Origin: an uncultured Gammaproteobacteria bacterium
GTDB lineage: Bacteria; Patescibacteriota; Microgenomatia; Levybacterales; GWA1-39-11
Direction of reading: 5' to 3'
Length of the DNA stretch: 64,000 bases
Assembly: GCA_964409875.1 (NCBI GenBank)
Contig: CAYPEN010000001.1
Coordinates: 70,362 to 134,361 of the forward strand
Part shown: piece by piece, positions 44,446 through 53,625 of the stretch
Layout: the number at the start of each line of letters is the position of its first letter
How positions within the stretch are numbered: the stretch's first letter is position 1
Program-made: the position numbers and the translations under genes
Notes under the pieces: model-generated
What the model was told of the DNA's origin: nothing
The model's input: only the letters and a program-made list of their open reading frames with translations
Database searches by the model: none

Positions 44446-45902
<1,457 letters not shown>

Positions 45903-51962: not shown

Positions 51963-53054
51963 CTACAGAACTAGCAAAAATATTCCTCCCAGGATTACTA
52001 TTATTGCCCCACCAATAATTCCAATTGTTTGAGCCATACCGCCCGGTTTTGCTATGGTCGGTGTAGCCGTCGGCGGAATTGGTGTTGCTGTTGCGGTCGG
52101 TACAACTGTAGCAGTTGCGGTGGGTTGCAAGGATGGGGTGGGGGTCTGAGTTGGTGAAATAGTAGCAGTGGGGGTGCTGGTGGGTGTCGGAGATGGAGTT
52201 AAGGTTGCTGTTGGCGTTGGTGTATAGGTAGCAGTAGGAGTGGGGGTGTTGGTGGGAGTTGCAGTGGGGGTATTAGTTGGGGTGGATGTCGTAGTATTTG
52301 TAGGGCTAACAGAAGTTGTTATTGTTGCTGATGGCGTTGCCGTTATTGTTACTGACGGTGTTGTTGTTGCGGTGGGGGTAGCAGTTGGTGTAATTTCCGC
52401 GTCAAGTACAGAACCAAAATCAGTCGTCCAGTACCAATTCTGGTCGTGCGTTGATTGGACGCGCGCAATGCCAATTGCAACAGCTTGCGCGTCTTTCATT
52501 TGCTCCCTGTGGGCATACGTACAGTTATTTCCATTCGCATCCCCGTCGCATCCGTTTTTCCACGCATCGAATGCACTTTGTCCGGTTGGCCCTACCCAAG
52601 CAATATTTTCTGCAATATGGGGAGCGCTATAGCCAAATGAGGGGATTCTTGTATTAATATTTCTGCCTTTCGAATCCACATGGTCTAAGTGTCCTGAAAC
52701 TGCCATGTCATTCGACATCCAGTCGGCCGATTCCGTAAGCTTTACGGAAATTTTCAAAGGGGATAGTCCAAATGTGGCACGGTAATCATTAATCAGTTTT
52801 AAAAAATTCCACTCTTCAGTGTCTATGTCTTTAGTTGAAGTTGTGGTAGTAGTTGAAGGAGTAGTGGTATCATTTCCGCTTGCACGTTGTCTGTTATCTT
52901 GCTGTTGTTTGATAAGAATTGTTGTGATAATAAGAGCTACCAAGACAAAAGTAATTGCACCGATGAGAACGAATTTTTTCTGCACAGTTAATATTACCTT
53001 TTGAACCTTTATAAACGCAATACTGATAGCATTCCGCTTCAAATTTTGATACAC
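51963..53054 (-). CDS. secreted CAP/SCP (PR-1-like) domain protein with Thr/Pro linker and C-terminal hydrophobic tail
   Basis: 363 aa. TM then QQQDNRQRA motif. CAP-like core ([10 protein letters not shown]...[11 protein letters not shown]...AWKNGCDGD). Long TPT repeat. Ends KPGG + 22 hydrophobic residues. Confidence 0.55.
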
Positions 53055-53065
53055 TTACCGCTAAT

Positions 53066-53137
53066 GGCGCGGTGGCGAAGTGGTAACGCGGGGGTCTGCA
53101 AAACCTCTATGCGAGGGTCCGATTCCCTTCCGCGCCT
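53066..53137 (+). tRNA. tRNA-Cys (anticodon GCA)
   Basis: Manual fold. Acceptor GGCGCGG/CCGCGCC. Anticodon loop CTGCAAA. T-arm GAGGG-TCCGATT-CCCTT (one G-U). Confidence 0.7.
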
Positions 53138-53162
53138 CAAATTTTAGTTTACGTTCTTCAGG

Positions 53163-53248
53163 TTGGCGAAGAGATCACTCACCGTTTCACGGTGTAATGC
53201 AGCGGTCTGCAAAACCGCGATGCAGGGGTTCGATTCCCCTCCGCGCCT
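53163..53248 (+). pseudogene. degenerate tRNA-Cys-like copy (intact anticodon arm/T-arm/3' acceptor strand; no matching 5' acceptor strand; ~22-nt insertion in D region)
   Basis: GCGGT-CTGCAAA-ACCGC, AGGGG-TTCGATT-CCCCT and CCGCGCC are present. The 5' side reads GGTTGGCGAAG[agatcactcaccgtttcacg]GTGTAATGCAG. Confidence 0.5.
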
Positions 53249-53415
53249 CACGAAACATCAATTTTTTTAATTCACGAGTTTTCTTTGTTGCCAATGGTGT
53301 TTGGTTTCGCCCCGATTCTCCCCTTCGGGGATCCGGCTTTCAGCATGACCCACGTGCCTCAAAATTCCCCAAACCCCTATAGTATTTTTCTTAATTTGTG
53401 CTATAATTCTTACTT

Positions 53416-53625
53416 ATGGCAAGTCCTGAGAAAGGTGGAGGTGGCGTTATCGAAGCCTACAAAAACGTTAACAGATATGTAATGGCAGGTGCTTTAAGCC
53501 TCGCTTTTTTAGGTGCATTTTTTGCACCTCCTCTTATTGTCCCTGCGCTTGAAATAGCAGCTGCAGAGGGACTAAATCTCATCGGCACCAACTTCATGCA
53601 AAAAGCCTTCACAAAAAGCGGCTAA
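53416..53625 (+). CDS. small membrane protein
   Basis: 69 aa with one TM helix. Confidence 0.3.
   Translation: MASPEKGGGGVIEAYKNVNRYVMAGALSLAFLGAFFAPPLIVPALEIAAAEGLNLIGTNFMQKAFTKSG

What the first reader, a model, noticed from the sequence alone, without database searches (positions are those of the whole stretch)
53066..53248. tRNA-Cys(GCA) followed by a degenerate copy lacking a pairing 5' acceptor strand
- 97 bp after tRNA-Cys is a second copy with perfect anticodon arm (GCGGT-CTGCAAA-ACCGC), T-arm and 3' acceptor strand (CCGCGCC).
- Its 5' side (GGTTGGCGAAG + 20-nt insertion + GTGTAATGCAG) cannot pair with the 3' strand.
- It is therefore either a pseudogene left by recombination, or the 3' portion of a split or permuted tRNA whose 5' half lies elsewhere.
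- ORF 53080..53382 is spurious.
Basis: seen in the sequence. Interest (0 to 1): 0.5.

Follow-up and report, generated by a model that had tools for sequence, protein, structure and literature searches.

The report
Decayed tRNA-Cys fragments beside live gene
The second "tRNA-Cys" is a dead fragment, one of two left next to the working gene by mobile DNA that repeatedly invades tRNA genes in this group of ultra-small bacteria; it is not half of a split tRNA.

Summary
tRNA-Cys(GCA) lies at 53066-53137. A second copy at 53165-53248 has intact anticodon arm, T arm and 3' acceptor strand, but no pairing 5' strand and a 20-nt hairpin insert in its D-loop. ARAGORN never calls it, and Rfam scores it 24.2 bits against a threshold of 29.

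It has a 30-nt hairpin insert in its T-loop and abuts the native trailer.

The window is a Levybacteria-type (CPR) genome. Of five syntenic relatives, three lack the array. One (L153) has it without copy 2's 3' half. One (L144) carries different relics. No free 5' half exists in 64 kb, so the split or permuted tRNA reading is not supported.

Copy 2's stems differ from copy 1 only by pair-preserving changes and match tRNA-Cys genes of other lineages. It therefore descends from a once-functional gene.

In relatives, small GIY-YIG endonuclease genes sit between a complete tRNA and a hairpin-interrupted partial duplicate of it (8 of 8 loci inspected). One of these (L010) carries a T-loop insert of the same size at the same site as copy 3. 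The window array is most likely a fossil of such cassettes. No endonuclease gene remains here, so this origin is inferred.

The parts
53047..53055 (+). Putative extended -10 promoter (TGATACACT) of the tRNA-Cys gene
   Evidence: The motif TTTTGATA(A/C)ACT lies at a similar distance upstream of tRNA-Cys, or of its leader, in L006, L009, L011, L012, L115 and L144. It is an inferred promoter and the simple scan did not call it.
53066..53137 (+). Copy 1: intact tRNA-Cys(GCA), the working gene; its T-loop is UCCGAUU with C55 at 53119
   Evidence: ARAGORN and Rfam at 60.2 bits. The sequence is identical in L006, L009 and L010; L150 and L153, whose contigs start inside the gene, match it over the 3' part that they hold.
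53138..53164 (+). Spacer A between copy 1 and copy 2
   Evidence: Poorly conserved against L153: 13 matches, 9 mismatches, 6 gaps.
53165..53248 (+). Copy 2: tRNA-Cys fragment covering positions about 9-73, with no 5' acceptor strand. The D-arm is split by a 20-nt hairpin insert (53172-53191). Anticodon arm (53202-53218), T arm (53224-53240) and 3' acceptor strand (53241-53247) are intact
   Evidence: Sequence. Rfam gives 24.2 bits, below the 29-bit threshold, and only as a D-armless fold. ARAGORN is negative even at an 80% threshold. The 3' 52 nt are 96% identical to the tRNA-Cys of L008, against 87% to copy 1.
53249..53311 (+). Spacer B
   Evidence: Only partly alignable with L153. No similarity to GIY-YIG proteins.
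53312..53361 (+). Copy 3: decayed tRNA-Cys 3' fragment. It consists of a T-loop remnant CCGATTC, a 30-nt insert (53319-53348) starting with the hairpin TCCCC-TTC-GGGGA, then CCCACGTGCCTCA
   Evidence: Homologous to L153, which reads GGGTCCGATTC + 31-nt insert + CCTTCCGCGCCTCA. The 25-nt core is 25/25 identical. L010 has a 30-nt insert at the same site.
53362..53415 (+). Native tRNA-Cys trailer and the promoter (TGTGCTATAAT) of the 69-aa gene that starts at 53416
   Evidence: The same trailer ...CCCCTATAGT(A/T)TTTTT... follows the intact tRNA-Cys directly in L006 and L150, but follows copy 3 in the window and L153.

Best explanation
Copy 2 is a non-functional tRNA-Cys gene fragment. It is the middle member of a three-part series on the + strand: working tRNA-Cys (copy 1), then copy 2 (positions about 9-73), then copy 3 (a T-arm and 3'-end remnant), then the native trailer.

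The series was most likely built when DNA carrying its own tRNA-Cys sequence inserted into the resident tRNA-Cys gene more than once. Each insertion left a displaced piece of the previous gene downstream.

The most likely vehicle is the small free-standing GIY-YIG homing-endonuclease cassette seen intact in related CPR genomes. There the endonuclease gene lies between a complete tRNA and a partial direct duplicate of that tRNA. The duplicate is always interrupted by a hairpin in its D-loop or T-loop.

In the window the endonuclease genes have since been deleted, leaving only hairpin-interrupted tRNA pieces. Copy 2 is probably co-transcribed with copy 1, but it cannot form an acceptor stem and so cannot be processed or charged.

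Shown: the anatomy, the non-detection as tRNA, the patchy distribution among relatives, and the cassette architecture elsewhere. Inferred: that the window's array came from such cassettes, and the order of events.
For: 1. Not a tRNA. ARAGORN is negative and Rfam scores 24.2 against a threshold of 29. ARAGORN calls tRNA-Cys only after both the 5' strand is restored and the 20-nt insert is removed. The fold is not better than shuffles, z = -0.98.

2. Derived from a gene that once worked. All 7 differences from copy 1 in the 3' 47 nt keep or improve pairing: 28:42 G.U to C-G, 50:64 A-U to G-C, 49:65 G.U to A-U, and C55 to the canonical U55. The sequence is 96% identical to the L008 tRNA-Cys.

3. 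Dispensable. Syntenic relatives L006 (with L134-143), L009 (with L145-149) and L150-152 have tRNA-Cys followed directly, or nearly so, by the native trailer. L153 keeps the array but lacks 48 nt comprising copy 2's 3' half. L144 has different relics.

4. Copy 3 sits against the native trailer, as expected for the displaced original 3' end.

5. Cassette architecture in relatives. L010: 5' fragment, complete tRNA-Cys identical to copy 1, GIY-YIG ORF (Pfam PF01541, 50 bits), then a 3' fragment with hairpin inserts. L051, L072, L154, L155 (two nested), L157, L163 and L161 show the same architecture or its mirror image for tRNA-Cys, tRNA-Ile and tRNA-Leu. That is 8 of 8 loci inspected.

6. Link to the window. 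The T-loop insert of copy 3 is at the same site and of the same length as in L010, and the alignment score is reached by 9 of 2000 shuffles. Copy 2's insert lies in the D-loop, where the cassettes' 5' duplicates are interrupted.

7. The mosaic of very high identity between window and L153 in the hairpin-bearing blocks fits element-level conservation or recent homing: 49/52 and 25/25, against 51-63% at third codon positions.
Against: - No GIY-YIG gene or remnant is detectable anywhere in the 64-kb window.
- The cassettes' signature palindrome CCTGCCTGCCGGCAGGCAGG is absent from the window.
- Copy 2 starts at about position 9, not at the anticodon loop where most intact cassettes break the tRNA.
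- The hairpin sequences in the window differ from those of the intact cassettes, except for a modest similarity to L010.
- The high conservation of copy 2's 5' block between two species about 23% divergent in coding DNA is not what a long-dead relic predicts. It could mean function.
- Large serine recombinase genes lie beside some of the tRNA-Leu loci (L157, L158, L163), so integrases also act at tRNA genes in this group.
- The order of events cannot be reconstructed uniquely.
Confidence: 0.6

Rival explanations
1. The fragments are attachment-site relics of integrase-mediated integration. Tyrosine or serine recombinase elements integrated into the 3' part of tRNA-Cys, and almost all of each element was later deleted.
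For: The layout of an intact tRNA followed by direct 3' fragments is the classic signature of integrative elements (PMC9897764, abstract). Short identical blocks are shared by the copies: GGTCTGCAAAACC and TCCGCGCCTC. Serine recombinase genes lie next to tRNA-Leu in L157, L158 and L163.
Against: No integrase was found among the 10 large ORFs within about 8 kb, nor beside tRNA-Cys in any syntenic relative. Copy 2 extends to position 9, far beyond usual att identity blocks. This does not explain the hairpin inserts in the D- and T-loops, nor the 5' fragments upstream of tRNA-Cys in relatives.
Confidence: 0.18
2. The fragments arose without a dedicated mobile element. One route is tandem duplication. 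The other is homology-facilitated illegitimate recombination of DNA taken up from related species, with the conserved tRNA as the homologous anchor, followed by decay.
For: Copy 2's 3' part matches tRNA-Cys variants of other lineages (L004, L008). This intergenic region is rich in indels in every relative. The sequence upstream of copy 1 resembles a tRNA 3' end plus trailer (my own reading).
Against: This does not predict the recurrent hairpin inserts at D- and T-loops, nor the tight association of the same architecture with GIY-YIG genes in 8 of 8 loci.
Confidence: 0.1
3. Copy 2, or its conserved 5' block together with the copy 3 hairpin, is a functional non-tRNA element. It could be a processing or termination signal for the tRNA-Cys transcript, or a tRNA-like decoy or regulatory RNA.
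For: The 5' block is 49/52 identical and the copy 3 core 25/25 identical between window and L153. By contrast, third codon positions are 51-63% identical and the spacers 59-69%.
Against: The element is absent from L006, L009 and L150, which have the same neighbouring genes. There is no Rfam match, no thermodynamic signal and no terminator-like site. Only two sequences are available, so covariation cannot be tested.
Confidence: 0.08
4. Copy 2 is the 3' portion of a split, permuted or intron-containing tRNA that is completed in trans or by splicing.
For: The anticodon arm, T arm and 3' acceptor strand are perfect, and a D-armless fold pairs 5 of 7 acceptor positions.
Against: There is no 5' half in 64 kb. 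The 3' half is deleted in L153 and the whole copy is absent in three relatives. No group I intron or other RNA family is detected. The genome is bacterial (16S). An intact tRNA-Cys lies 27 nt upstream.
Confidence: 0.03

Closest known systems
tRNA gene fragments (pseudo-tRNAs) left beside tRNA genes by integrating genetic elements (van der Gulik et al. 2023, PMC9897764; sublocation rules of Williams 2002, recalled from memory)
   Same: Partial, non-canonical tRNA copies lie in direct orientation next to an intact tRNA. They are easily mistaken for genes, are patchily distributed among relatives, and are non-functional.
   Different: No integrase or element body is present. The fragments carry hairpin inserts in the D- and T-loops. 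Relatives also have 5' fragments upstream of the tRNA, which integrase-type integration does not normally produce.
Free-standing GIY-YIG homing endonucleases in tRNA gene clusters, e.g. phage T4 SegB (PMC2330249); SegB-driven segmental amplification of tRNA loci (PMC13096335, abstract)
   Same: A small GIY-YIG gene lies next to tRNA genes, is presumed to spread by cleavage and repair that co-converts flanking tRNA sequence, and can generate local duplications.
   Different: The T4 case is a phage gene between intact tRNA genes. Here, in relatives, the gene is chromosomal in CPR bacteria, splits a tRNA gene, and is accompanied by a duplicated, hairpin-interrupted tRNA part. In the window only the fragments remain. 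Cleavage activity is untested.
Split and permuted tRNA genes (Nanoarchaeum equitans, Cyanidioschyzon merolae; recalled from memory)
   Same: A tRNA part is encoded without its partner strand.
   Different: Those systems have a matching other half with complementary joining sequences and a splicing endonuclease, and they are conserved. None of this is found here.
Group I introns in Patescibacteria tRNA genes (Nakagawa et al., bioRxiv 10.1101/2025.07.03.662931)
   Same: Same phylum. tRNA genes are interrupted in the anticodon loop and escape annotation tools, and partial tRNA matches flank the insert.
   Different: [quoted passage not shown] Here no intron model matches, the inserts are 20-30-nt hairpins, and an intact gene copy sits alongside.
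GIY-YIG-encoding non-intron insertions in CPR rRNA genes (PMC11270868)
   Same: Same bacterial group. GIY-YIG genes sit within insertions in stable-RNA genes that are not introns.
   Different: Those are in rRNA genes and were judged not to spread by homing. No duplication of the host gene was described.

Membership tests
Canonical bacterial tRNA (Rfam RF00005) | Score at or above the family gathering threshold, or a call by a tRNA finder | tested here: not met
   Rfam scores 24.2 bits against 29. ARAGORN is negative by default, with introns allowed, and at 80-90% thresholds.
Canonical bacterial tRNA (Rfam RF00005) | Seven-base-pair acceptor stem formed by the 5' and 3' ends | tested here: not met
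   The bases in the 5' strand position (TTCAGGT) pair at only 2 of 7 positions with CCGCGCC. The best alternative, GGUGUAA, pairs at 5 of 7 but eliminates the D arm.
Canonical bacterial tRNA (Rfam RF00005) | Anticodon arm, T arm with the T-loop consensus, and 3' acceptor strand | tested here: met
   GCGGT-CTGCAAA-ACCGC, AGGGG-TTCGATT-CCCCT and CCGCGCC.
Split / permuted tRNA gene | A separately encoded complementary half (5' strand GGCGCGG...) | tested here: not met
   GGCGCGG on the + strand occurs only in copy 1, and the 18-nt 5' end has no other match at up to 3 mismatches. The rest of the genome could not be searched.
Split / permuted tRNA gene | Conservation of the half-gene among relatives | tested here: not met
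   Absent in the L006, L009 and L150 groups. The 3' half is deleted in L153.
Split / permuted tRNA gene | Bulge-helix-bulge junctions and a tRNA splicing endonuclease | not tested
   The genome beyond the window was not available. The organism is bacterial by its 16S rRNA gene.
Integrase-generated tRNA fragment (att relic) | A direct repeat of the tRNA 3' portion downstream of an intact tRNA | tested here: met
   Copy 2 and copy 3 lie in direct orientation downstream of copy 1.
Integrase-generated tRNA fragment (att relic) | An integrase gene or element body between or beside the repeats | tested here: not met
   Only 27 nt and 63 nt separate the copies. No recombinase domain occurs among 10 ORFs at 46-61 kb.
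GIY-YIG cassette with partial tRNA duplication (architecture defined here from L010, L051, L072, L154, L155, L157, L161, L163) | A GIY-YIG ORF between the complete tRNA and the partial duplicate | tested here: not met
   tblastn with three family members finds nothing significant in the window.
GIY-YIG cassette with partial tRNA duplication (architecture defined here from L010, L051, L072, L154, L155, L157, L161, L163) | A partial direct duplicate of the tRNA interrupted by a hairpin in the D-loop or T-loop | tested here: met
   Copy 2 has a 20-nt hairpin insert in the D-loop. Copy 3 has a 30-nt insert in the T-loop at the same site as L010.
GIY-YIG cassette with partial tRNA duplication (architecture defined here from L010, L051, L072, L154, L155, L157, L161, L163) | The signature palindrome CCTGCCTGCCGGCAGGCAGG | tested here: not met
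   No match in the window at up to 3 mismatches. It is present in L010, L112, L154-156 and L161-163.

The most novel reading that the evidence does not exclude
The window's hairpin-interrupted tRNA-Cys pieces are fossils of an undescribed kind of intron-less homing element in CPR bacteria. This would be a roughly 80-aa GIY-YIG endonuclease gene that invades essential tRNA genes (Cys, Ile, Leu). It keeps the host viable by carrying a duplicate of the disrupted tRNA part, so that one complete gene is regenerated. It marks the leftover part with a conserved palindromic hairpin in the D- or T-loop. On this reading, the unusually conserved blocks shared by the window and L153 are functional parts of the selfish element, for example target-site immunity, protection against repeat-mediated deletion, or control of endonuclease expression.
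Probability: 0.45. Interest if true: 0.7.

Novelty: new member of a known kind. Interest (0 to 1): 0.42.

Why it matters
The finding itself is mainly an annotation caution. Copy 2 should be marked as a pseudo-tRNA fragment, ORF 53080-53382 dropped, and the missed third fragment recorded.

The context is more interesting. In these reduced genomes the single tRNA-Cys gene is a recurrent target of mobile DNA. Related genomes show a consistent architecture that, as far as I could find, has not been described: GIY-YIG gene, complete tRNA, and a hairpin-interrupted partial tRNA. If confirmed, it would show how a homing endonuclease can colonise an essential RNA gene without an intron. It would also explain many stray tRNA fragments in CPR genomes.

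Tried and rejected
- Metagenome scan with the 17-mer GGCGCGGTGGCGAAGTG.
- Three viral-contig scans, for the copy 3 core, the D-loop insert and copy 2's 3' half. All returned zero hits.
- Search for a free-standing 5' half in the window. None found.
- RNA folding of copy 2 and of the downstream region. Not better than shuffles, z = -0.98 and +0.13.
- Promoter and terminator scan. Nothing useful on the + strand.
- Rfam at permissive threshold on the region, and at gathering threshold on 10 related loci. Only intact tRNAs and rRNA were found, no group I intron.
- tblastn for GIY-YIG remnants and a search for the cassette palindrome in the window. Both negative.
- A generic double-hairpin scan was too noisy. 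A stricter TC-N4-loop-N4'-GA x2 motif is real in L051, L072 and L100 but does not match the window's hairpins exactly, so I do not use it as evidence for the window.
- I considered reading L153's copy 2 plus copy 3 as one gene with several introns. I rejected this because the 3' anticodon-stem strand and the variable loop are missing.
- The search for homologues of the 69-aa neighbour gene found only six distinct sequences. No further syntenic relatives were available.

Full report
**What is there**

ARAGORN finds one tRNA-Cys(GCA) at 53066-53138, and Rfam scores it 60.2 bits at 53066-53137.

Twenty-seven bases downstream a second, related sequence begins. It reads:
- GGCGAAG at 53165-53171.
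- A 20-nt insert at 53172-53191, containing the hairpin CACCG-TTTCA-CGGTG.
- GTGTAATGC.
- A perfect anticodon arm GCGGT-CTGCAAA-ACCGC at 53202-53218.
- A perfect T arm with the canonical TTCGATT loop at 53224-53240.
- CCGCGCC-T at 53241-53248.

The bases where a 5' acceptor strand should lie cannot pair with CCGCGCC.

The 19-nt 3' end pattern occurs exactly twice in the window, against 0.02 expected. An independent Logan assembly (L001) is identical over the whole intergenic region. The array is therefore neither a chance match nor a one-off assembly artefact.

**Is copy 2 a tRNA?**

No.
- Rfam gives 24.2 bits, below the 29-bit threshold. It reaches that score only by deleting the D arm and accepting two A.C mismatches in the acceptor stem.
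- ARAGORN does not call it with introns allowed or with thresholds lowered to 80%. It calls tRNA-Cys only after I both restore GGCGCGGT and remove the 20-nt insert. Either repair alone is not enough.
- The minimum-free-energy fold is no better than shuffled sequence, z = -0.98.
- No other GGCGCGG 5' half exists in the 64 kb.

**Where copy 2 came from**

Copy 2 differs from copy 1 at 7 positions in the 3' 47 nt, and none of these breaks a base pair. Two are compensatory double changes (28:42 and 50:64). One turns G.U into A-U. One restores the canonical U55, which copy 1 lacks.

The 3' 52 nt are 96% identical to the tRNA-Cys of L008 and 96% over 49 nt to that of L004, against 87% to copy 1. Copy 2 therefore descends from a different, once-functional tRNA-Cys gene. 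It is not a randomly decaying duplicate of copy 1.

**The organism and its relatives**

The window carries a bacterial 16S rRNA gene and a DUF5667 protein. It is syntenic with contigs labelled Levyibacteriota (L009), so it is a Levybacteria-type CPR bacterium.

Using the tRNA pattern and the 69-aa downstream gene, I recovered five related species with the same gene order: dCTP deaminase, CAP-domain protein, tRNA-Cys, 69-aa protein.
- L006 (with L134-143), L009 (with L145-149) and L150-152 have the identical tRNA-Cys followed directly or almost directly by the native trailer ...CCCCTATAGT... There is no copy 2.
- L153 has the array. However, it lacks exactly the 48 nt CCGCGATGC...CATCAA, that is, copy 2's 3' half.
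- L144 has different relics: an anticodon-loop piece and a 3' end piece.

The element is therefore dispensable and variable among relatives. This argues against any essential tRNA role.

**A third fragment**

L153 shows that the window's 53312-53361 is a further tRNA-Cys 3' fragment.
- In L153 it reads TTCTGCAA-GGGTCCGATTC, then a 31-nt insert, then CCTTCCGCGCCTCA, followed by the native trailer.
- In the window it reads CCGATTC, then a 30-nt insert starting with the hairpin TCCCC-TTC-GGGGA, then CCCACGTGCCTCA, followed by the native trailer.

The full series is therefore complete gene, copy 2, copy 3, trailer.

**An unexpected conservation pattern**

Window and L153 are about 77-86% identical in flanking coding DNA and 51-63% identical at third codon positions. 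Yet copy 2's 5' block, including the D-loop insert, is 49/52 identical, and the copy 3 hairpin core is 25/25 identical. The spacers are only 59-69% identical. A long-dead relic should not look like this. I return to this point below.

**What makes such fragments in this group**

Other CPR loci recovered by the scans show tRNA genes broken by insertions that carry a replacement copy.
- L104 has a complete tRNA-Cys, flanked by a 14-bp inverted repeat. It sits inside the anticodon (34/35) of another tRNA-Cys, whose T-loop also holds a 62-nt insert.
- L010 has a tRNA-Cys identical to copy 1. It reads: 5' fragment (positions 1-22), 79 nt, complete tRNA, an 83-aa GIY-YIG ORF (Pfam PF01541, 50 bits), then a 3' fragment from the anticodon loop onward. 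That fragment is interrupted by three hairpin inserts.
- L051 reads: a 5' part with hairpin inserts in the D-loop and anticodon loop, GIY-YIG, complete tRNA-Cys.
- L072 shows the same arrangement for tRNA-Ile.

I then took homologues of the L010 protein and looked up five of them.
- All five sit between a complete tRNA-Leu and a partial duplicate of it.
- The duplicate is split by the palindrome CCTGCCTGCCGGCAGGCAGG or a close variant (L157: CTGTCTGCCGACAGGCAGG). The split is in the D-loop for 5' duplicates (L154, L155 with two nested cassettes, L157, L163) and in the T arm for a 3' duplicate (L161).
- Nine of 18 over-called homologues begin with a peptide related to LPAGRQ, the translation of that palindrome. 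Several run at their C-termini into peptide that looks like translated tRNA sequence.

That makes 8 of 8 inspected loci with the same architecture or its mirror image. No group I intron model matches any of them.

**Link to the window**

- Copy 3's T-loop insert is at the same site as one of L010's and of the same length, 30 nt. Its second half is recognisably similar, and the alignment score is reached by 9 of 2000 shuffles.
- Copy 2's insert lies in the D-loop, where the cassettes' 5' duplicates are interrupted.
- L153's copy 2 ends in the anticodon loop, where most cassettes break the tRNA.

I therefore read the window's array as the remains of successive cassette insertions whose endonuclease genes have been deleted. 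The conserved hairpin blocks would then be element-derived sequence. They would be kept by selection acting on the selfish element, or be younger than the species split because the element moves.

This is inference. The window has no GIY-YIG remnant and no copy of the palindrome.

**Rivals**

- Integrase att relics fit the direct 3' fragments, and serine recombinases do lie near some tRNA-Leu loci. No integrase is near tRNA-Cys here or in the syntenic relatives, and the hairpin inserts and 5' fragments are not explained.
- Plain duplication, or anchor-mediated illegitimate recombination, cannot be excluded. It does not predict the GIY-YIG association.
- A functional non-tRNA role for the conserved blocks remains possible at low probability.
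- The split-tRNA idea is effectively excluded.

**Comparison with what is known**

- tRNA gene fragments left by integrating elements are well documented and commonly mis-annotated (PMC9897764).
- GIY-YIG homing endonucleases beside tRNA genes are known from phage T4 SegB (PMC2330249), and SegB can amplify tRNA loci (PMC13096335).
- Patescibacteria tRNA genes carry group I introns at 35/36 (bioRxiv 10.1101/2025.07.03.662931).
- GIY-YIG genes occur in non-intron insertions in CPR rRNA genes (PMC11270868).
- I found no description of a GIY-YIG gene paired with a hairpin-interrupted partial tRNA duplicate. The searchable library is incomplete, however.

**Verdict**

Copy 2 is an ordinary kind of object, a pseudo-tRNA fragment, in an interesting setting. 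As a finding it rates low to moderate. The cassette architecture seen in relatives deserves separate follow-up.

Noticed in passing
L010:5300-5900 (-), L051:1-600 (-), L072:450-930 (-), L154:1480-1870, L155:1180-1900, L157:1440-1820, L161:1050-1500, L163:1140-1530: A family of roughly 80-aa GIY-YIG genes always lies between a complete tRNA (Cys, Ile, Leu) and a partial direct duplicate of that tRNA. The duplicate is interrupted in its D- or T-loop by a hairpin, often the palindrome CCTGCCTGCCGGCAGGCAGG. L155 has two such cassettes nested. I found no description of this in the searchable literature.
   Followed up: partly
window 53118-53124 (C55 at 53119): The working tRNA-Cys has the T-loop UCCGAUU, with C instead of the near-universal U55. 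The same variant occurs in L006, L009, L010, L150 and L153, while L007, L012 and L013 have UUCGAUU. Whether this relates to endonuclease resistance is pure speculation.
   Followed up: no
L009:3418-3461 (-), L006:1112-1155 (-), L012:2687-2735, L115:575-618: A 44-49-nt leader lies between promoter and tRNA-Cys. It consists of the first 11-17 nt of the tRNA, a hairpin whose 3' arm is complementary to GGCGAAGTG, and an A-rich spacer. The window lacks it, and its promoter abuts the tRNA directly. This is consistent with deletion between the direct repeats.
   Followed up: partly
L104:6725-7055: A complete tRNA-Cys (acceptor stem GGCGCGT/ACGCGCC) is flanked by a perfect 14-bp inverted repeat. It is nested inside the anticodon, between positions 34 and 35, of a second tRNA-Cys whose T-loop also carries a 62-nt insert.
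   Followed up: no
window 53163-53214 and 53312-53336 versus L153:50-104 and 141-166: These blocks are 94% and 100% identical between two species whose third codon positions are only 51-63% identical. The intervening spacers are 59-69% identical. The cause is unexplained.
   Followed up: partly
L157:2018-3261 (-), L158:1764-3261 (-), L163:1511-2643 (-): Large serine recombinase genes (Resolvase, Recombinase and Zn_ribbon_recom domains) lie immediately downstream of the tRNA-Leu genes that also carry GIY-YIG cassettes. Two kinds of mobile DNA therefore use the same tRNA loci.
   Followed up: no
L100:1632-2076: A gene that appears to belong to the four-helix-bundle protein family found in 23S rRNA intervening sequences lies between tRNA-Cys and tRNA-Ser. 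It is flanked by inverted repeats, and a double hairpin (TCGGCCAAAGGCCGA-TCCGCCTTTGGCGGA) abuts tRNA-Ser. The family assignment is from reading the translation, not from a Pfam scan.
   Followed up: no
window 44446-45901: The 16S rRNA gene is about 1456 nt long and is not followed by a 23S gene within the window. tRNA-Ile(GAT) lies 5 kb away on the opposite strand. This looks like an unlinked rRNA operon layout.
   Followed up: no
L006, L008, L010-L013 record titles: Several contigs syntenic with, or clearly related to, Levybacteria loci are titled 'uncultured Gammaproteobacteria' or 'Pseudomonadales' in their TPA assemblies. The labels are probably wrong.
   Followed up: no
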